From positions 21,576,001 to 21,640,000 of the forward strand of contig NW_024704746.1 of assembly GCF_018977255.1 (NCBI RefSeq): a stretch of DNA of 64,000 nt, written 5' to 3'. This DNA is from Callorhinchus milii. Its lineage: Eukaryota. The position numbers were made by a program, and so were the translations under genes. The number at the start of each line of letters is the position of its first letter. The stretch's first letter is position 1. A model generated the notes under the pieces. The model saw nothing but the letters and a program-made list of their open reading frames with translations, was not told the origin of the DNA and did not search any database. Below are positions 28,235 to 58,479 of this stretch, piece after piece.

Positions 28235-28362
28235 AAGATGGCGGCGGCCCGATCCCGTGACGTCAGCGCTCCCCCTCTCGGGGGGGGGCTGGAGATCTCG
28301 CGAGGGCGCCGCGGCCCGCGCGCCCACCTGCGGCCCAGAATCCTTTGCGCCGTCCTCTTTCC
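28235..28362 (+). promoter_or_regulatory. RPS8 CpG-island promoter with 5' TOP/TCT initiator
   Basis: YY1-type AAGATGGCGG 28235-28244, CRE TGACGTCA 28258-28265, TCTCGCGAG motif 28296-28304 and pyrimidine tract TCCTCTTTCC 28353-28362 just upstream of the ATG. All are typical of vertebrate ribosomal protein promoters. Confidence 0.8.
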
Positions 28363-28379
28363 AGCCGCCGCGCCTGACG

Positions 28380-33571
<5,192 letters not shown>

Positions 33572-33597
33572 ACATGTTTGCAAGAAAATGAGATCTT

Positions 33598-33603
33598 AAT
33601 AAA
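33598..33603 (+). terminator. RPS8 polyadenylation signal
   Basis: AATAAA 27 nt after the stop codon, followed by a T/GT-rich tract. Confidence 0.8.
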
Positions 33604-33823
33604 CCCATTTTTCACCCAATTTTGTCTGGTTCTTTTCTGAAGGACAGAAAGGTATACTGTGTATGTTTTGCCTACTCCCAACATACAATCAACAAAATAT
33701 TTTTTCAGAAACTAAGCTTTAACCCTATTATTACATTGACTTTTTCTAATACTGTGTGGGTAATCATTCTAAAATACTGATGAAGAATTCTGTTCTTAGA
33801 TGTGGCAAATATTGTAGCTGATA

Positions 33824-33954
33824 TGCACAACTAAGTGACTTGATAGCCTACTTGTGGCCTTGAGGTTTCATTCTTGTGCAAGATTAAACTTCAGTTTGCA
33901 GATGGGATGAGCTTTAACCTGTGGCTTGCTCCCTTTCGAAGGCTGGGGATAATT
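33824..33954 (+). ncRNA. Box H/ACA snoRNA-like RNA, copy A (3' box ATA), downstream of the RPS8 polyA signal
   Basis: Hairpin 1 closed by TGCACAA/TTGTGCA, H box AGATTA 33881-33886, hairpin 2 (CTTCAGTT/GGCTGGGG; GGGATGAGC/GCTTGCTCCC), ATA at 33949-33951, 131 nt long. Paralog at 39461-39590. Confidence 0.6.
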
Positions 33955-35239
33955 GTTCCCTCTTGTGGGAAATGAGCAAAACACATTTTTCAAAAAGGTT
34001 ACATGTTGTCAAAGCTACCTGCGCTCACAGCTTGCGCTTTAGAAGTCCAGAAATGAGATTAGAGATCAACATTTAATTTACATTAAAGTGCAAAAAACAC
34101 AATACTACAAAATAGGAAAGGTATAAGTAAGCATTGTTGATTAATTAGCCCCAATTCTGACCACTTATTTTACATACTGTCCAACAATCTTGACCAGTTC
34201 AGTTTACAGGAAAGACTGATTTGTTGGGAGTTTGTAAATTACAACTTCTGAGCTGTTGTGTAGGTCACTCAATTGTGACCAGAATACATACTCCCAAGAG
34301 TAACTAATGATCTCACTGGTTGCTGACTTCCAACTCGCTGAGCCTGTGTAGGACGCTTTGTGTTTGACCCTCGAGTCCATCTGCTAACATGCAGTTGAAA
34401 CCCTTCAACAACAACAAGATTACAACATTACAAACCCTTATCTACAATCGCCTCTGCATTTGATTTTTCTAATTCCCTGCTCGTTGGTCTATACAGCGCT
34501 ACCCTCCACGAATTAGAATGCTGCTTGCCCTTATCCCACATAAAACTCCATGGGTGCATCCTTGGCTCGCTATCGACCGGCAGATTGTTTTAGGACCTTA
34601 ACTCTTAGCTTTAAATGCCCTTTGCCTACAAGTAAAATACTGTGAAGCACATTGAGATGTCTATGTGGCAAGGTGCTTGTTGCTCCCAACCTCTGCCCTG
34701 CCTGTTTCCTCCCTCTGCCTGGCACGCTCTGGCCTGCCCATCCCACCATAGTCAGTGCAGCTTCAATGAACTATATTCACACAAACTAAGCATTGGGTTG
34801 TCCCCTGCAGAATATTCAAGGTGGCCTCAAATTAGACCGATACACTACAGAGTTTAGTGAATCATTCTGCAATGAGCCCAAATCCCTTATGATTGTAACA
34901 ACACAATTTTATTACTGCTTTGTGTGCCAACTACCGACACAAGAATTCTTAACAACTAATCTTGTAAGAGAATCTGTCCGTGAAGTCTTAATGTTCATCT
35001 TAAAAAAAATCATGAATGCATTGTATGAAATATTATTTACATTTTTTTTAACAGCAAACCATTAAGTTCAGTTCCACCCCTTCCAAGTACGTTGCCACAT
35101 TTGAGTTAGGATTTATAAGAAATAAAAGTTGCTGATCGTACACCTGAAACATTTGTGTAATTGCGCTTTGAAAATGTGCTGTAAGCTATTTGTATTTTGC
35201 TTTTGATTGGGCTAAAAATAAACTTTATTTTAATATTCC

Positions 35240-35780
35240 CAACTGTGAGGAGATGCTGGACTTCCTCGAATCTAAAATGGAGGGTATAAGTTCAGCCAAC
35301 TCCACATCACCTCTCCTTCATGACCCATCCCTCCCTATGCTCCTTCGACCCTATCTCTTCCTCCTCCCTCACCACGACTGTCTGCAAACTCAAACCCACC
35401 ACCTGCTCCCTCGATCCCATCCCCACCTCCGCCCAACTCCACCTTCTGGCCTCTCTCCTGTCCGACGTCATCAAGCGCTCCTTATCCACCGGTTCAGTTC
35501 CCAACCCTGACCCGCCCGCCCCACCATTGGCGGGAGAGCCTTCAACCACTCTACCCCCAACCTCTGGAATTCCATCCCCCAGTCACTCCGCCTCGCCTCC
35601 TCCTTAGCCTCCTTCAAGTCCCACCTCAAGACCCTCCTCTTCGACTGTGCCATCGGCCACCCCCCCCCCTTCTGCCCCCCCCTGACCCCAGCTCGGATCT
35701 GAAATGCTGTACACTGTCCAGCGCCTTGGGACGTCCTCCCGACACGAAAGGCGCCACACAAATGTAATCCTGTTGTCGAT
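35240..35780 (+). mobile_element. Internally deleted L2 LINE
   Basis: LKPTTCSLDPIPT...IKRSLSTGSVP (L2 ORF2 pre-RT region) joined directly to the 3' tail GGCGGGAGAGCCTTCA...CTCTGGAATTC, as at 61880-62110. Confidence 0.8.
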
Positions 35781-36197
35781 ATCATCCGATGTTTCCTTAG
35801 CGATTGGCCGGATTAACCGTCGCCCTTTTCAACTCCCACTGCGCGACCCCTATTTGCCCGGTCTGCGCAAAGCCCCGTCATGAGGGGCGCTACGGGCGGG
35901 TCTTGTGTGTTAAAGAGAAAGAAATCGAAAGAACTTGTGAGGCCGACCGCAAAGTCCGGGATGACCCGCGTCCCCACACTGTAGCGGGTGACCAAAAGCG
36001 CCTTAGTTTTCAGCGAGAACCTGTTTGCCCTGAAAAAAAAATCATTTATTTAATAATTATTAAGAGACGTTGTGCACAGTCCCCCTCTCTGTGTGTGTGT
36101 GTGTGTGTTATATATTATTATTTATTATTATTATTATTATCTGTGGGGCTCTGGGACCTCACCCCTCACCCCCCCCATTGCCTGGACTCTGGAAAGT

Positions 36198-36271
36198 CAC
36201 GTGGTGGAGGGTGGTGACGTGGCTTCCGCCAGGGTATAAAGGGGGCCTCGCGGCGCCTCCCCGGTCTCTCC
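36198..36271 (+). promoter_or_regulatory. CpG-island promoter of the putative snoRNA host gene
   Basis: E-box CACGTG 36198-36203, TGACGT, ETS-like CTTCCG, TATAAA 36235-36240 and pyrimidine initiator TCTCTCC 36265-36271 30 nt downstream. A strong donor GAG|GTAAGA follows at 36358/36359, with YY1-type AAGATGGCG motifs in intron 1. Confidence 0.75.
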
Positions 36272-36854
36272 GGCCGCCGCTCGCGCTCCGGGACGGGGGT
36301 GTCCCGCGGTTCCCTCAGCGACGACACCGCGGAGGGAAAAATCCAGCCCGAGGCCGAGGTAAGAACTTCTCGGAGCTTCCCGCCAGGGATTGGACCCCCT
36401 AAACAGTCGAGCCCTCCTCGCTCCGCTGGAGAGGCCGAGGCTGGGGCCGGGCCTGGGCCGCACGGGGTCGGCGGGGGGTGGGGTGTAAGATGGCGCCGGG
36501 GCCTTCCTTCCCGCTCGAGCCTGAGGCCCCGGGAGGGGGGGGGGGCGCTCCCCAAGCGGCTGTTCCGCCCTTCATCAGTGATGCAGCAAAGTGCAGCGAT
36601 GCAAAAAGATGGCGAGACCTCTTGAGCCGACACCGTGAGGGAGGGCTTTGCCTTCGGCTGAGCGCTCGCGGACTCGCTGCTGACTCGGGCGGGCGGGGGC
36701 GGGGGTCAGGGTTAGGGTTAGGGGGGGAGACGAGGACGACGGTCATTGTAACACCGCCTTCTGTGGGGTTTTGTAGGGACAAAAGAGGAGGCTCGAGAGA
36801 AGCTTCTCCCCGAGAGTGGGCGGCGGGAGGCGGGGGGGGGGGTGGGGGGGAGTT

Positions 36855-37100
36855 ATCTGAGGAAGACTCGCAAAAAGACCCTAAAATCCCACACGTCGAG
36901 TCTTTTTGTTTGACTTTCTGAGGATTTGCATCGCTTCAGTGGGAAGATCCCGATGAGGTGCACAGCGCATGTGTTTTGGGTGCAGCCTCTCGTTCTTGGG
37001 CAGTCTGTTCTTTGCAGGTCCAGGAATATATTTTTTTTCTTCCTTGTAAAATACTTTTTCAGGCAGCAAACTCGAACTTGGGTCGTCCGCGTAGCCCTAC
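36855..37100 (+). pseudogene. Copy of RPS8 intron 3 end and exon 4 start with a 5'-truncated SNORD38 remnant
   Basis: ATCTGAGGAAGACTCGCAAAAAGACC...ATACTTTTTCAG|GCAGCA aligns to 30682-30900 and 40604-40820. Only the D box and 3' stem of SNORD38 remain. Confidence 0.75.
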
Positions 37101-37689
37101 GTCTTGAAGCTAATTTTCATCGCTTCCTGGTGATCGAGGAGGATGGATGGCTGCGAAACCTTCACCTATTTTGTCCAGGAAGAAGTGCTGTGCTGCAGGA
37201 CTGTGGGCGGCATGAGTTCAGACATCACGCCTCCATGCCAAGCTATGGGGTACACATGCATACTTTGTCCGGGGGGGAGTTACAGAAGAACGTACTTATT
37301 GTTGTTGGGGCAATTGATTAATTCTCATAATTATTAATTGGGTTAAGGAAGAGCGGAGCTGCTTCAAAGGCATTCTGATCTGACTTTTAGGGGCCAGTCT
37401 TTTCTCCTCTTGGGCTGCCACGTGTTGGATGCCCGTGGGGACAGATTGTAAACTAGACAGTTGCTACTTGTTTTGGAGGATTGCCTTGTGTGCACATTTG
37501 AATCCAAAGCCGTTAGGAAAGTGATAAATTGTGAGTAATTACAATTATTTTACATAGGCTGCCATATAAAATGCTGTTAAATAGTTGAAAACTGTATAAC
37601 ATGAGGAGGGATGATGGTGCAAAATGAAGCACCCTCTCACCATTTAAGTTGAATAAGCTGAATCATGTACATTGCATCTTTAATTGATC

Positions 37690-38007
37690 AGATAATAATC
37701 CTTGCATTTGATATAGCGCTTTTCTAGTCTTCTAGACGTCCCAAAGCGCTTCACAGAACACACTGTAAAGTGAATTGACTGTATATTTGTGGGCGAACGC
37801 GGCAGCCAATTGCGCACAGCAATGTCCCACAAACAGTCATAGATTGAAAATGACCAATTTATTATTTTTTGTTTTTTTGGAGGGATTATTATTAGGCTCT
37901 GTGTGGAGTAAGGAAACTTGCCCAAGGTTTCGCCCTTTGCCTGTAATTGAACTCGGGTCTCTCGCTTGCAAAGTGAGTGCTCTAACCACTGAGCTACAGG
38001 ACTCCAC
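37690..38007 (-). mobile_element. Full-length tRNA-derived SINE
   Basis: Reverse-complement head, core and tail of the family. Confidence 0.85.
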
Positions 38008-38284
38008 AATCTCAGAAAATGCAAAAAAGTGTTTTAAACGCCTCAATGGAGTAAATTTTAAATTTGCAACGTGCAAAGACTTGAAAGTTGGATTGTAGTT
38101 ATTTGAAACATAAAGTAGGTTACCAACTCTTGGTTCTGGATAGTACCCTGATTGTATGTGACATTCATGGGTGGGGGTGACTTCTTGGGAGCATTTTTCA
38201 CTGTTGGGCACTTGTGAGATGTCCTCCCAATGTAAAAGCCTCAGTATAAATGTTGGCTGTGTTGTACGGTTACAGATCAGCAAG

Positions 38285-38359
38285 TGTGAATGATGAACCT
38301 TAATTGCTGTGAAACTCTGAACTTACCGTGTGGAGAGTTATCTTGGAGAGCTGAACACT
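38285..38359 (+). ncRNA. SNORD55: SNORD55 copy 2
   Basis: C box 38290-38296, D box 38351-38354, 11-bp terminal stem, guide TATCTTGGAGAG intact, 71 nt upstream of an AG acceptor. Confidence 0.88.
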
Positions 38360-38699
38360 TGCTGACTATGTTCATTGTCTAATTTTCATTTTAGGATTGC
38401 ATTTTAATTTTGTGACTTATTGCAGGTGTTTCTGGGACAATTGGCACGAATGCCACAGGACTTGAGGCAAAAGGAAACCATTCCACAAACAGAGAAATCT
38501 TGAACCTGATCGTTGTTGGCTGCATGTGTATGGTAATTATTAGGTTATCAAAGAGCAGATCTGTTGTATTGCTTGTTTAGATACAGCACTGAATACATCA
38601 AGAGCACTTGTTACTGTGAAAGTCTATAGTATGTTTAATAATGGATTTGAAAGGTGCTGTAAAATGTAAATTGTGTTTGTATGGTTACAAATCAGCAAG

Positions 38700-38773
38700 T
38701 GTGAATGATGAACCCCAACTGCTGTGAAACTCTGAACTAAGCTGTGGAGAGCTATCTTGGAGAGCTGAACACT
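38700..38773 (+). ncRNA. SNORD55: SNORD55 copy 3
   Basis: C box 38705-38711, D box 38765-38768, stem TCAGCAAGTGT/ACACTTGCTGA, guide intact, 73 nt upstream of an AG acceptor. Confidence 0.88.
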
Positions 38774-39460
38774 TGCTGACTTTATGTTCATTGTCTAATT
38801 TTCAATTTAGGATTGCATTTTAACTTTGTGACTTATTGCAGGTGTGTCTGGGACAGTTGGCACAAATGCCTCAGGATTGGAGAAAAAGAAAACCATACCA
38901 GAGAAATTATGAACTTAACTGTCGTTGGCCACATGTGTATGGTAATTATTAAGTTTTCCAAGAGCAAATCTGTGTTATATTGCTTGTATAGAGCTCTGAA
39001 TATATCGATAGTATGTTTAGTGATGGATTTGAAATATTGCATCTGCAATTTGGGCCACTTCTAGATCAGCCCACTTCTTGAGACCATTCTAGCAGGGAAA
39101 GCTCCGTGGTTGTGAACAAAGATGGTGCCCTTAAACCAAATAGTTCAACTGCCCCTTAGTCAGGTTAGTTGCTTTTTGAGCTATCTGCAGTTCAATAGTT
39201 TGTTTCTGGATCCCTTTGTGCATTCATGAATGTACTCTAATGTGATTAGGACAACTCTATACATACGCAACAGGATACACTATAAAAGAATGCAACATTT
39301 TTTGTTGAGAATTTAGCAAACACTCTTTGTCGGGTTAAATGGTGATTGAAATATGCAATGGCTGTTATGTGTTGCTTTCTGGAGATATTCGTGGCTTTCA
39401 TTTCATTTCAAAGTTCCATTTTGGAATTATTATTTTTTTTAGCAAATATGGTAACTCGTG

Positions 39461-39590
39461 TGCACAACTAAGTGACTTGTTGGCCAACTTGAGGTCTTGA
39501 AGTTTCATTCTTGTGCAAGATTAAACTCCAGCTTGCAGAAGGGCTGAGCTTTAACCCATGGCTTCTCCCTTTCGAAGGTTGGGGACAAAT
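39461..39590 (+). ncRNA. Box H/ACA snoRNA, copy B (canonical ACA), family not recognised
   Basis: Hairpin-H box (AGATTA 39518-39523)-hairpin-ACA (39585-39587) plus 3 nt, 130 nt long. Both internal pockets start 14 nt upstream of their box. Confidence 0.75.
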
Positions 39591-40240
39591 TTATCCTGTT
39601 GAGGGAAGCTAGCAAACAAAATAATTTTTCAAACGATTGGATGTTGTGAAACCTACCCTTAGTTAGCACTTTAGAGGGGCCCTGAAACTGAATTTGAGAT
39701 CAATGTTTAATTTACATTATAAAGTAAAATACAACAAAACGAAGACACAATTAAGCAATGTTGACTAATTAGCCCCAATTCTGAGGCTTCTTATTTTGCA
39801 CAGTGTACAATAATCTGTTAACAAGTTCAGTTTACAGGAAAGAGGCTTTGTTTTGTCAGGAGTTTGTAAATTGCAGGTTCTGAGCTGTTGTGTACTTGAT
39901 CCTCTTATGTGCCTGTTATTGATCCGCTGGAAAAGTCCATTGTAAGTTTAGTGATGGATTTGAAATTTTGTATCTGCAGATTGGGCCACACTGTCCATGA
40001 TGGTAATAAGAAATACTGAGGACTGCGATTGGATTCTGGAAATGTTTTTTGCGGCTTTTGAGTGTAAGTTTTTTGTTTGTTTGCTGTGGTTGCAGTTATT
40101 TCGGTGGGAATTAGTGCTAGGAACCCTCCAGACACCTTGGCCAAATGGCCATTTAGAAATTTGAGTTAGGCGGGCCCAGTGCTTTGATTTTTAGGACTGT
40201 CAAAGCCTATGCGTGACAGCAACCACTTGGCTTGCCCCAG

Positions 40241-40400
40241 ATAATAATAATCCTTGCATTTGATATAGAGCTTTTCACATCTTTTAAACTTCTCAAAGCG
40301 CTTCACAGAAAATACTGTAAAGTGAATTGACTATATTTGTGGGTGAAACGCGGCAGCCAATTGCTCACAGCAATGTCCCACAAACAGTCATGGATTGAAT
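40241..40400 (-). mobile_element. SINE 3' half
   Basis: ATAATAATAATCCTTGCATTTGATATAG...GCAGCCAATTG. Confidence 0.8.
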
Positions 40401-40544
40401 TTAAAGTTTATTTTTTTTATAATTTAATTTCTTAATGTTTAATGAGTAGAGTGCTTGGGTGTTAATTGCCAAATGGATGTCTGACAATCTTGTAGCTTCC
40501 TGTTGCATCATTTGAATCAGGCATTATCTTAAATATTTTGAGTC

Positions 40545-40614
40545 TTCTAATGATGATAACTTTGTCCAGTTCTGCTACTGAAGTTTAAGCGATGATACTA
40601 GTGATCTGAGGAAG
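40545..40614 (+). ncRNA. SNORD38: SNORD38 copy 2
   Basis: C box 40550-40556, D box 40606-40609. Identical to the RPS8 intron 3 copy. Confidence 0.92.
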
Positions 40615-41171
40615 ACTTGCAAAAAACCTGAAATCTTAAGTGAAGTCTTTTTGGTTGCATTTCTGAAGATTTGCATTGCTTCAGTGAGAAGATCCAAATT
40701 AGATGAATAAAATGTGTTTTTTTGGTTCTTGGGAAGCTGGTCTTTTGCGGATGCAGGACTAATTATAAAAAATACTTTTTCAGGCAGCAAACACGAACTA
40801 GGATCATCAATGTAGGCTTCAGCCTTACAGCTAATTTTCATCGCTTCCTGATGTTCAATGAGGATAGATGTCTGGCACCCTGTCTTATTTTGTCCAGGAA
40901 GAAGTGGTGCATGACTGAGGATAGCACGAGTTCAGACATAAAGCCGCCAAGCTGTGGGGGTACGCGTGCCTTCTTTCGCCCAGGTGGGGATTCTAGTCAT
41001 AGACGACTTAATTGGGTGTAAGGAAGCAGGATTGTTAAGCCTACACCATTAAAGTGGCAATTTCTGAGGTTTTAACTAAATGTAAAATAAAACTTAATAA
41101 TATTGCAGTTCTGCGTGATTAGTGGCATCCAACATATTAAATTAATTTCTGGAAGTTTTATTGTGTGGCAA

Positions 41172-41275
41172 TATGGATGATGAACACCCGACTTTGATAT
41201 AGGTGGGTTACTTTTGACCGTTTTGGTCTTATTTAAACCCACCAATGCTGCTTTGTCATAGTTACACTGACTATT
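41172..41275 (+). ncRNA. SNORD46: Box C/D snoRNA SNORD46 (U46/U40)
   Basis: C box ATGATGA 41177-41183, guide TTGTCATAGTTACA plus CTGA 41267-41270 (U46 signature, antisense to 28S GUAACUAUGAC), long internal hairpin GGTGGGTT/AACCCACC, flanking stem GGCAATA/TATTGCC. Confidence 0.9.
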
Positions 41276-41693
41276 GCCTGAGCAATTCATTTTACTACCA
41301 GAAAAAGAATAGTATTTATATAGTCTATATTCCTGCTTGTTTCTAAAAGCTGTTTTCATCACTGATAGCTTCCAATCCTTTTAGCCAAGTTAGTAAATGT
41401 TTTGCCTGGGGAACTTTATTCATTGCTGTATTTAAATTTTTATTTTAGGTTAATCCACACAGACTAATGAAAGTGAGGCATCTGGAGCCGCTTTGGTACA
41501 AATCAGATGTTGCTATTAAAAGCTATGGTAAGTTTTTTTTTGATCTAAAGAAATTGCATTGTGCCCATTGGGTTTTCTACCAGCATCTCTGCATGTATGG
41601 GAAGGTTAAGATTACTAACAAGTCTGATGTGAACTTGTGGCAGCCATTATATAAATTTCAGATTGATGTACAAAATGAGAGAATCACCTTGTC

Positions 41694-41764
41694 TTCTTGT
41701 GATGAAAATCTTTGTCCAGTTCTGCTACTGAAATTAAAGTGACGATACCGTGGATCTGAGGAAG
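41694..41764 (+). ncRNA. SNORD38: SNORD38 copy 3 (divergent paralog)
   Basis: C box GTGATGA 41699-41705, guide TGTCCAGTTCTGCTA-CTGA, D box 41756-41759, stem TTGTCTTC/GAAGACAA. Confidence 0.92.
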
Positions 41765-43579
41765 ACAATAGGATTGTAAAGTTGATCCTTATTTTTACGA
41801 AAAATAAACTGGCGCCACAGAATTGACCATTGTTTAGTGCTGGTTAGTGAAACGCTGCCTGGAGGTAACTATTGTAAAAGCCTTGTGTTTGATTTGAAAC
41901 AGTTGTTTTTAATTTGGTTTATCACTATGATTTTGCCTGAAGAGCTTTCATGCACTTTTAATCCAGATAGATGTTTAATGGTGAAAATGAGTAAGATTTA
42001 ATTGGATGAATCTTAACTTTTTCATTTACCTTTCATGTCAAAGATTGGACAGTGGTGACAGATGAAAAAAGCTTTGAAGAAAGGAGTTGAAGTTCTGAGA
42101 TCAAGATGTATTGTGGAAAATGTTGATGAAAAGCATTCCACCTTTTGTCTTTGCTATGTGATAGGGAAGTATGTGTGTGAATCTGTTAACACAATGGTTA
42201 TTTCCTTGATTCAAAAATAAAACTATTTTAATCAAAGGTATTGGTGTTTAATCAAATTGGTACAGTTAGCAGAACTTGTCAAACTTAGTTATTTCAGACA
42301 TAAAGCAGATTCCTTCATTGCTGGGAGGAGGAAGGATGTATGTACACCCTACACTGGCAGGTTTAGCCGGCAGGCGAGTACTAACTTAAGAGTGGCTTAG
42401 CTTTAATTCTTTAAACATTAAAGGATGTTTAAATCTTCATTATAGTGACTGGCAAAGCAACAACTTCAGTATCTTCCTCTGTACATTTGAGCTTCAAGTC
42501 TGAGCAATTTTCAAAAGGACATGGAGTAGAGCTAGTACTGTTTTGATCCTCCTGCTATTAGTAACTCATTGGGAGTGATCAAATCTGGAGTTGTGTACTA
42601 AATTGACACGAGTTGAGCAGGGGTGTGTGCATCTTGGGTCCGTTTGTGAAGGTTAGTCATCATTCAGCACTGGACTTACAATCATGCTATGATATAATAG
42701 TGAGGACTGGAAACAAAAATATACTTTTTAAACAAATTGAATGCCTCACAGTTTATGTTGGTAAAAGTTCAGAGGCCTCTTGATGTTACTCTCAGAACAC
42801 CTTTTGGACTGGTGGTTCTATTTCGCACACCAGTTACTCCTGTAGCTTCTGAATTAAAACTTTTTAGTGTGAGTATATGCCAAGCCATGCAGCAATTTTT
42901 TAAAAAATATATATATACCCTGGTTGGTTGCTCATATCCAACAAGTGAGTTACTCACAAGCCTACCTTGTAATATTAATGCATTTGATATCGTGCCTTAT
43001 GTCGTTGGGAAATATCAAAATGCTTCACAGGATATACTGTAAAGTGAATTGACTGTTTTTCGGGTGTAATGAGACACTAAGAGCATCAGTCTCGCACACA
43101 ATTATATCAGGTTCCTGTCACAAGTAGAACTCGTCAGCTGAGCTGGGAGCATTTGCTCTGCGAGTATTGTTCCACTCGATCATTGCGGCACAAGTTCGGA
43201 AGCGAGTGCCCATTTGCAGTAATTGCATTTCTACTTTTTTTAAGACGCAACAAACTCATTGAGAGAGAGGTCGGTCGAAATGAACCGACTTTTAACGAAC
43301 CAGAGTCTTCCCACTTGGAAGCGAGAACTCTTAACCGATACGCGACCAGCCTACAATATGAAACTTTTCAAAGGGCTGCGGAGAACAGTTCCAACAAATT
43401 ACATTCGTGTAGCGCCTTTCACATGGGGGACGGGACGTTCACTCCACATCTACGCCGCTGGTGGAAACGTGAGCAAATGCTCTCGCCATTCATTCGTTGA
43501 TTTATTTGTGGCGAGTAAGTGTGGTCCAAAGTGCAAGTTGTCGTCTGAAAGAGTGTCCCTTTAAGGGTCCCCGGGTACC

Positions 43580-43743
43580 TGCGCCTTTAAATTGCGCGCG
43601 CGGACGCGCGTGCGGCGGCGGCGGCGCGTCGGGTGGCGCTGCGCATGCTCCGAGCCTGGCAAGGTTTGAAATTTTGTCGGTTGGTGGCGGGCGGCGAGAA
43701 CAGCCGTTAACGGTCGTAAACGTTGGCACAAGCAAACGGAACA
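43580..43743 (+). promoter_or_regulatory. KIF2C CpG-island promoter with G2/M elements
   Basis: NRF1-like TGCGCATGC 43640-43648, CHR TTTGAA 43665-43670 and MYB-type palindrome CCGTTAACGG 43704-43713. These are consistent with DREAM/MMB control of mitotic genes. Confidence 0.65.

Positions 43744-58479
<14,736 letters not shown>

What the first reader, a model, noticed from the sequence alone, without database searches (positions are those of the whole stretch)
36198..42221. A non-coding snoRNA host gene apparently born from scrambled duplicates of RPS8
Seen: a separate CpG island with TATA box and TOP-like start whose first bases (TCTCTCCGGCCGCCGC) resemble RPS8 exon 1 (CTCTTTCCAGCCGCCGC) but contain no ATG. 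RPS8 fragments follow in shuffled order (ex4', ex2, ex2, ex3/5 fusion, 3' flank, ex3, ex4') with frameshifts and stops, while six snoRNAs and most splice acceptors stay intact. Established: vertebrate snoRNAs are processed from introns, often of 5'TOP non-coding hosts such as GAS5 and the SNHG genes. Inference: the locus captures a ribosomal protein paralog being converted into an SNHG-type lncRNA, with selection acting on snoRNAs and splice sites rather than codons.
Basis: partly seen in the sequence, partly recalled or inferred. Interest (0 to 1): 0.88.

Follow-up and report, generated by a model that had tools for sequence, protein, structure and literature searches.

The report
snoRNA host gene built from RPS8
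Beside its intact ribosomal-protein gene RPS8, this vertebrate has a spliced, non-coding gene largely built from broken RPS8 copies, with one small guide RNA (snoRNA) in each of six introns, and it is likely kept because it holds the only detected copy of a guide that RPS8 itself has lost.

Summary
The feature is real and transcribed. One contig from a run guessed to be RNA fits an 8-exon spliced chain to the base (936 nt). The last joint stands in 3 of 3 such runs and not in the DNA-like run. Six of seven introns hold one snoRNA each (SNORD55 x2, SNORA35, SNORD38 x2, SNORD46), all complementary to this genome's rRNA. Exon remnants drift like introns (81% vs 80%); boxes and guides are 72 of 73 identical. 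New here: SNORD46, in RPS8 intron 2 in 3 of 4 other vertebrate loci, is missing from this RPS8 and found only in the host. Corrections: the conversion is old and complete; promoter and first-exon descent from RPS8 is unproven; excess conservation of splice regions is not significant. Xenopus has 11 snoRNAs of the same four families in 13.6 kb, so a second host may be ancient. Human pseudogene-named hosts (RPL32P3, CCT6P1/3) are precedents.

The parts
36200..36850 (+). CpG island with TATAAA (36235) and TOP-like start (about 36266)
   Evidence: single place in the genome for 36200-36420; exact start not shown, RNA contig begins at 36282
36266..36358 (+). Exon 1, no ATG; RPS8 origin unproven
   Evidence: inferred from the 75 unlisted letters of contig X9/28 and its depth at 36290
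37063..37249 (+). Exon 2: RPS8 exon 4 acceptor, then sequence paralogous to exon 6 (unit 72% alike); holds the first AUG (48 codons)
   Evidence: listed piece 37061-37248
38285..38359 (+). SNORD55 copy a, intron 2, 66 nt from the acceptor
   Evidence: Rfam 40.2 bits; guide pairs 28S C2273
38426..38532 (+). Exon 3: RPS8 exon 2 remnant fused by a deletion to intron 2 sequence, which supplies a new donor
   Evidence: listed piece 38425-38531
38700..38773 (+). SNORD55 copy b, intron 3, 68 nt from the acceptor
   Evidence: 33.1 bits, under the cut-off of 35; boxes and guide 23/23 identical to the RPS8 copy
38842..38941 (+). Exon 4: tandem duplicate of exon 3 (unit 85% alike)
39005..39381 (+). Intronic RPS8 debris: ex3 start with dead acceptor fused to the 3' half of ex5, and intron 5 pieces
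   Evidence: skipped by the spliced contig
39460..39590 (+). SNORA35 (H/ACA), intron 4, canonical ACA box
   Evidence: 80 bits; 3' pocket pairs around 18S U311
39980..40063 (+). Exon 5: RPS8 exon 3 remnant with both original splice sites
40241..40421 (-). Short dispersed repeat (SINE-like, named from recall) in intron 5; end point of dispersed copies of this intron
40544..40614 (+). SNORD38 copy b, intron 5, inside a 100-bp block identical to RPS8
   Evidence: 65.5 bits; guide pairs 28S A1490
40784..40959 (+). Exon 6: first ~38 nt from RPS8 exon 4, the rest not alignable to it (405/1000 shuffles)
   Evidence: listed piece in X4 and X9
41169..41276 (+). SNORD46, intron 6; only copy detected in the genome, none in RPS8
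   Evidence: aligns to SNORD46 of L016 and L017; guide pairs 28S A2769
41449..41527 (+). Exon 7, no detectable RPS8 homology
   Evidence: 79 letters beside the joint in X9
41695..41765 (+). SNORD38 copy c, intron 7; 82% identical to the RPS8 copy, flanks unalignable
   Evidence: 64.9 bits
42044..42240 (+). Exon 8 with AATAAA at 42216; weak likeness to RPS8 exon 6
   Evidence: GT..AG joint in X1, X4, X9; 2/1000 and 10/300 shuffles, 4.3 bits vs control 3.0; 3' end not shown
28357..33620 (+). Intact RPS8 (6 exons, 208 aa), the donor; hosts SNORD55 (29244) and SNORD38 (30622), no SNORD46
33823..33954 (+). SNORA35 copy past the RPS8 poly(A) signal (33598), ATA in place of ACA
   Evidence: 66.1 bits; same position in L018

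Best explanation
This is a spliced eight-exon non-coding gene that carries six snoRNAs, one per intron, and whose middle is made of partial tandem copies of RPS8; it likely arose from RPS8 duplicates in more than one round and is likely retained because it is the only detected source of SNORD46. Shown: splicing, exon chain, snoRNA placement, rRNA complementarity, neutral decay of exon remnants, conserved boxes and guides. Inferred: transcription from the TATA/TOP promoter, release of snoRNAs from the excised introns, and nonsense-mediated decay of the spliced RNA (first ORF stops 506 nt before the last junction). Inferred history: same-strand unequal crossing-over with deletions gave the shuffled order; old acceptors and a new donor from intron 2 re-formed exons; RPS8 kept the protein and lost SNORD46, the copy lost the protein and kept the snoRNAs. 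The 3' part (SNORD46, exon 7, SNORD38c, exon 8) and perhaps the promoter would be an older duplicate now beyond alignment.
For: Contig X9/28 lists 4 exons as pieces, and the unlisted stretches (79, 185, 75 letters) match the 4 predicted exons so that the sum is exactly 936. The joint at 41527/42044 is in X1, X4, X9 (three studies), 0 in X11; no processed copy of exons 1, 7 or 8 was found in the genome. 2584 of 5975 bases are RPS8-derived, all same strand. Identity to RPS8: snoRNA 309/338, exon 290/357, other 1277/1589. Against replacement sites in exon remnants as the yardstick for change in the host lineage: 29/338 vs 47/275, p=0.002; without SNORD38b p=0.035; boxes and guides 72/73 vs rest of snoRNA 123/145, p=0.0009. 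SNORD46: best of 3 weak genome hits, only exact guide-plus-D-box match, absent from RPS8, in RPS8 intron 2 in L016, L017, L018. All 5 host C/D guides pair 10-11 nt with this genome's 28S at positions near the Xenopus targets.
Against: Exons 1, 7, 8 and most of 2 and 6 (about two thirds of the mature RNA; 326 of 1023 nt align) show no firm RPS8 homology. Host-only test of SNORD55a vs b shows no excess (60/66 vs 234/264, p=0.83); the dispersed C3 copy also has 0 changes in 63 snoRNA positions, so that comparison does not separate live from dead. The blocks share history and were picked by alignability, so p-values are optimistic. The SNORD46 genome scan scored only 49 of about 93,000 candidates. 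L019 shows no SNORD46 in the 300 nt or less of intron 2 that it holds (1 of 4 loci). Mature snoRNAs, start site, level and decay were not measured; runs are contigs and RNA only by guess. Xenopus has an expanded cluster of the same families.
Confidence: 0.6

Rival explanations
1. The host is an ancient non-coding neighbour of RPS8 with its own promoter. It gained RPS8's snoRNAs by local hopping and was later refilled with RPS8 segments by recombination; only its middle is RPS8-born.
For: X. tropicalis has 11 snoRNAs of the same four families in 13.6 kb, more than five RPS8 introns hold at one each (PMC6984369 supplement; hosts not named there). Host has a TATA box, RPS8 none in the 50 bases before its start. 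CpG islands do not align (38/300). SNORD38c is as far from the RPS8 copy (82%) as other vertebrates' copies are (76-83%). The first block starts at the D box of SNORD38.
Against: Every snoRNA belongs to a family of the RPS8 locus. First and last exons each resemble RPS8's first and last exons weakly and at the expected ends (2/1000 each). The frog cluster could be an independent duplication.
Confidence: 0.27
2. It is transcribed pseudogene debris; the snoRNA copies are redundant and look conserved through gene conversion with RPS8.
For: A 100-bp block is identical to RPS8, while run X1 and two dispersed copies differ from the reference there, which fits conversion or polishing. No snoRNA excess in the 55a/55b unit.
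Against: SNORD46 has no partner to convert from yet keeps boxes and guide against other vertebrates. SNORD38c keeps 26/27 box and guide positions with unalignable flanks. Six of seven introns hold exactly one snoRNA.
Confidence: 0.07
3. The spliced RNA is kept for a short peptide or as a functional long RNA, with the snoRNAs as passengers.
For: The first AUG opens 48 codons in a strong context (A at -3, G at +4).
Against: Longest ATG ORF is 74 codons, reached by 123/1000 shuffles; exon remnants change at the intron rate; the stop lies 506 nt before the last junction.
Confidence: 0.04
4. The shuffled interval is a misassembly.
For: The 100-bp identity with RPS8 may be a local polishing error.
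Against: Contigs of DNA-like run X11 bridge 36899-37715, 37985-38771, 38753-40264 and 40670-42600; a spliced contig links the pieces in genomic order; dispersed copies of host intron 5 lie on other contigs. No single piece spans the whole stretch.
Confidence: 0.02

Closest known systems
Vertebrate non-coding snoRNA host genes (SNHG, GAS5, UHG type)
   Same: Short ORF-poor spliced exons, one snoRNA per intron, CpG-island promoter with TOP-like start, predicted decay of the spliced RNA (PMC13736004 passage; TOP from recall).
   Different: Here a third of the mature RNA and 43% of the span still align to the neighbouring coding gene, so the origin of the middle can be read.
Pseudogene-named human snoRNA hosts RPL32P3, CCT6P1, CCT6P3
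   Same: Non-coding snoRNA hosts listed by HGNC under pseudogene names (PMC11833636 passage); that they are duplicates of RPL32 and CCT6A is read from the names and recalled.
   Different: This one is a mosaic of several partial tandem copies in shuffled order, with six snoRNAs, re-formed exons, and a snoRNA that the parent gene has lost.
lncRNAs derived from protein-coding genes (PMC5577775)
   Same: Coding capacity lost, transcription kept.
   Different: That study covers loss of the ancestral gene and calls duplication followed by pseudogenisation harder to quantify; here the parent is intact 2.6 kb away.
SPA lncRNAs (5' snoRNA-capped, polyadenylated), for the SNORA35 copy past RPS8
   Same: A snoRNA downstream of a poly(A) site, with RNA contigs beginning just inside its 5' end; XRN2 trimming to a snoRNP is the described route (PMC12084880 passage).
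   Different: The SPAs in that passage have C/D caps; this would be H/ACA. Evidence here is only a weak hint.

Membership tests
SNHG-type non-coding snoRNA host | Spliced multi-exon transcript | tested here: met
   contigs of runs guessed to be RNA
SNHG-type non-coding snoRNA host | Sense snoRNAs in introns, one per intron | tested here: met
   6 of 7 introns; intron 1 holds only a SNORD38 D-box remnant
SNHG-type non-coding snoRNA host | No long ORF | tested here: met
   74 codons, 123/1000 shuffles
SNHG-type non-coding snoRNA host | 5' TOP start | tested here: inconclusive
   pyrimidine run 31 nt after TATA; contig starts 16 nt later; contigs cannot show a start
SNHG-type non-coding snoRNA host | Mature snoRNAs made from these introns | not testable with these tools
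   no small-RNA reads; one X4 contig begins 18 nt inside host SNORA35, one study only
SNHG-type non-coding snoRNA host | Spliced RNA decays by NMD | not testable with these tools
   predicted from ORF positions
Transcribed unprocessed pseudogene of RPS8 | Intron-containing, disabled, transcribed duplicate | tested here: met
Transcribed unprocessed pseudogene of RPS8 | Collinear with the parent gene | tested here: not met
   shuffled order; 2584 of 5975 bases align
SNORD46 (RF00218) | Rfam gathering score of 40 bits | tested here: not met
   29.8 bits, E 0.0047; a second copy in L018 also scores 27.7
SNORD46 (RF00218) | C and D boxes, guide, target pairing, likeness to other vertebrates' SNORD46 | tested here: met
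   11 bp with 28S, fifth-position A2769; alignment to L016 and L017 copies
SNORA35 (RF00566) | Two hairpins, ACA box, pockets for both 18S sites | tested here: inconclusive
   host copy 80 bits with ACA; 3' pocket fits U311 in both copies; no pocket of 8 bp or more for the site matching Xenopus U531 in either
SPA lncRNA (RPS8 3' flank) | 5' end at the snoRNA, poly(A) tail, made after upstream cleavage | tested here: inconclusive
   contigs of two studies begin at 33839 and 33841, DNA run goes on; loose-end table was cut

The most novel reading that the evidence does not exclude
RPS8 and a non-coding twin form an old, recurring module in non-mammalian vertebrates. The twin is rebuilt from RPS8 pieces, and the protein and the four snoRNA families are shared out between the two (SNORD46 only in the twin here; SNORD55 seemingly only in the twin in Xenopus). 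In addition, the SNORA35 conserved past the RPS8 poly(A) site is released without an intron, through an H/ACA-capped polyadenylated RNA.
Probability: 0.25. Interest if true: 0.82.

Novelty: new variant of a known kind. Interest (0 to 1): 0.62.

Why it matters
The exons of snoRNA host genes are poorly conserved, so their origin is usually unreadable. Here parent and product lie side by side, and the steps can be read: tandem copying, deletion, reuse of acceptors, a new donor, loss of coding, and transfer of sole charge of one rRNA guide. It gives a testable case of a duplicate kept for its intronic cargo alone, and predicts second hosts beside RPS8 in frogs and perhaps other non-mammals.

Tried and rejected
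No RNA holder was listed as on record; 10 of 14 runs were RNA by guess, and 3 of those plus 1 unlabelled DNA-like run were laid. Depths were not used to rank genes. The joint table was swamped by repeat artefacts (966 rows not shown; 14 of the 15 shown join two repeat copies and stand in X11 too), so only one true joint was listed and RPS8 read-through splicing could not be checked. Exon 7 as a decayed RPS8 exon 3: 13/300 and 16/300 shuffles, no profile hit: not supported. Exons 3 and 6 have the same lengths as RPS8 exons 2 and 4 (107, 176), but their 3' parts come from intron 2 or do not align: coincidence. Two other SNORD46 family hits and two one-mismatch guide hits showed no box C/D layout by eye. 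No other RPS8 copy by exon 4 protein search. The decayed SNORD38-like remnant in RPS8 intron 4 has no rRNA match. RPS8-type letters in X1 contig 6 at 40625-40658 may be contig collapse and were not used. First exon coordinates were wrong and were corrected. Pfam found nothing in the upstream ORFs sent (73 of 113; 129 ORFs of the window in all). Paper searches found no description of this locus or of an RPS8-derived host; SNORA35 with RPS8 gave 0 papers; the library lacks most subscription journals, and bioRxiv supplements were closed.
Full report
Setting. An intact RPS8 (6 exons, 208 aa, CDS 28380-33571) is followed on the same strand by the region in question and then by a KIF2-family kinesin gene (Pfam KIF2A-like_1st and Kinesin). 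A protein search with exon 4 finds no other RPS8 in the genome. The lineage was not tested.

Observation. They cover 2584 of 5975 bases. Within runs the order is collinear (intron 1, ex2, intron 2, ex3 start, deletion, ex5, intron 5, deletion, 3' flank; then intron 2 end, ex3, intron 3, ex4 start), which reads as partial tandem copies with deletions. Two units are duplicated inside the host (85% and 72% alike). Rfam finds six snoRNAs, four over the cut-off.

Transcription. Of 14 runs that hold the stretch, 10 are RNA by guess. Three of these from three studies and one unlabelled DNA-like run were laid on 33400-42600. X1 and X4 carry the RPS8 exon 5 end as a loose end at exon 6, so they hold spliced RNA. 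A GT..AG joint at 41527/42044 stands in X1, X4 and X9 and not in X11. Contig X9/28 (936 nt) lists four pieces that match exons 2, 3, 6 and 8. The unlisted stretches of 75, 185 and 79 letters match predicted exons 1, 4+5 and 7, and the chain from 36282 to 42169 sums to 936. X4 contig 20 (550 nt) fits exons 3-7 by length and by its depth at 38871. No processed copy of exon 1, 7 or 8 was found. X11 contigs bridge the shuffled junctions, against misassembly. Contigs cannot show start, level or mature snoRNAs.

Anatomy. Introns 2-7 hold one snoRNA each; the SNORD55 copies lie 66 and 68 nt from their acceptors. Five RPS8 acceptors are reused; the sixth has lost its AG and is skipped. Exons 3 and 4 end at a donor strengthened from a cryptic GT of RPS8 intron 2. 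The first AUG is at nt 174; its ORF has 48 codons and stops 506 nt before the last junction; the longest ORF (74 codons) is at chance level. All five host C/D guides pair 10-11 nt with this genome's 28S, pointing at C2273, A1490 and A2769; the 3' pocket of SNORA35 fits 18S U311. The Xenopus targets are C2320, A1506, A2898 and U315 (PMC6984369 supplement rows). No pocket was found for the second 18S site.

Selection. Identity to RPS8: snoRNA 309/338, splice regions 113/131 (p=0.11), exon remnants 290/357, other 1277/1589. Constraint on the RPS8 side alone would halve divergence, so replacement sites in exon remnants (47/275 changed) served as the host-lineage yardstick: p=0.002, or 0.035 without SNORD38b. 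Boxes and guides of three copies are 72/73 identical against 123/145 for the rest. Against this: the SNORD55a/b unit shows no excess (p=0.83), the dispersed C3 copy has an unchanged snoRNA too, the blocks are not independent, and the 100-bp identity at SNORD38b may be conversion or polishing.

SNORD46. It has no match in this RPS8. It is the best of three weak genome hits (49 candidates scored) and the only exact match of guide plus D box. A metagenome scan gave four other vertebrate RPS8 loci; three have SNORD46 in intron 2, and the fourth holds at most 300 nt of that intron and shows none. The host copy aligns with two of them at boxes and guide. So RPS8 here likely lost SNORD46 and the host likely supplies it, which would explain retention.

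What is unproven. The likeness of the 5' start to RPS8 exon 1 reaches 2/1000 in a narrow post hoc test, not in wider ones; RPS8 shows no TATA box in the 50 bases before its start. Exon 8 resembles exon 6 weakly. SNORD38c is as far from the RPS8 copy as other vertebrates' copies are, so the 3' part is older than the middle. X. tropicalis has 11 snoRNAs of the same four families in 13.6 kb, against four human ones in 2.6 kb with human SNORA35 on chrX; the table names no hosts, and that the human four lie in RPS8 is recalled. By spacing against L018 the first frog part looks like rps8 and the second like a non-coding host with both SNORD55 copies; this is inference from coordinates. Zebrafish rps8a is listed with six snoRNAs, the last an H/ACA (PMC11880993 supplement rows).

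Known kinds. It behaves as an SNHG-type host and meets the features testable here. HGNC's list includes hosts with pseudogene names, so birth from a duplicate has precedent; the mosaic build and the sole charge of a parental snoRNA are the variant. Ten paper searches found no account of this locus. Papers seen: passages and supplement rows of PMC6984369; supplement rows of PMC11880993; passages of PMC13736004, PMC11833636, PMC5577775, PMC12084880, PMC3349704 and PMC4378963 (the last two not used); none read whole; others as listings only. The scan's notes hold nothing at this place; a word search returned eight other host-gene notes, none tested or relied on.

Verdict. Observation confirmed, interpretation partly supported, new variant of a known kind, interest 0.62.

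Noticed in passing
window 33823-35240; L018 322-192: A SNORA35 copy lies about 200 nt past the RPS8 poly(A) signal with no CpG island before it; L018 has SNORA35 about 700 nt past its RPS8 poly(A) signal, so the position is conserved. RNA contigs of two studies begin at 33839 and 33841 and run on towards AATAAA at 35217 while the DNA run continues upstream: a weak hint of a snoRNA-capped polyadenylated RNA. An unseen 3' intron is the alternative.
   Followed up: partly
window 40241-40801; L021, L023-L026: Six places on other contigs copy host intron 5. Of 5 examined, 4 end exactly at the tail of the intron's SINE-like repeat and one is broken by another insertion; their other ends vary (40508-40801). 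This fits retrocopies of an antisense RNA primed at the repeat tail; one carries a complete SNORD38.
   Followed up: partly
window 40526-40625 vs 30604-30703: 100-bp exact identity with RPS8 around SNORD38; run X1 differs at 40534, 40537 and 40550, and two dispersed copies differ at the first two, so the reference may carry a conversion tract or a polishing error.
   Followed up: partly
window 31826-31955: RPS8 intron 4 holds a decayed copy of the intron 3 SNORD38 segment, guide lost.
   Followed up: partly
window 30700-30780, 40620-40700, 36866-36950: Sequence downstream of SNORD38 is well kept in all copies (41-bp exact block); it folds into two hairpins in RPS8, but the host copies fold otherwise, so a role is not shown.
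   Followed up: partly
window 41498-42072 and 37241-37683: Unspliced contigs cover intron 7 (X1, X4) and the start of intron 2 (X4): retained introns or precursor RNA.
   Followed up: no
window 43550-55000: KIF2-family kinesin gene directly downstream; recalled that human KIF2C lies upstream of RPS8, so the order may differ.
   Followed up: no
L013 (G000:C17:3480304-3480434): A third, distant H/ACA RNA matching SNORA35 at 50.3 bits, with no flank likeness to this locus.
   Followed up: no
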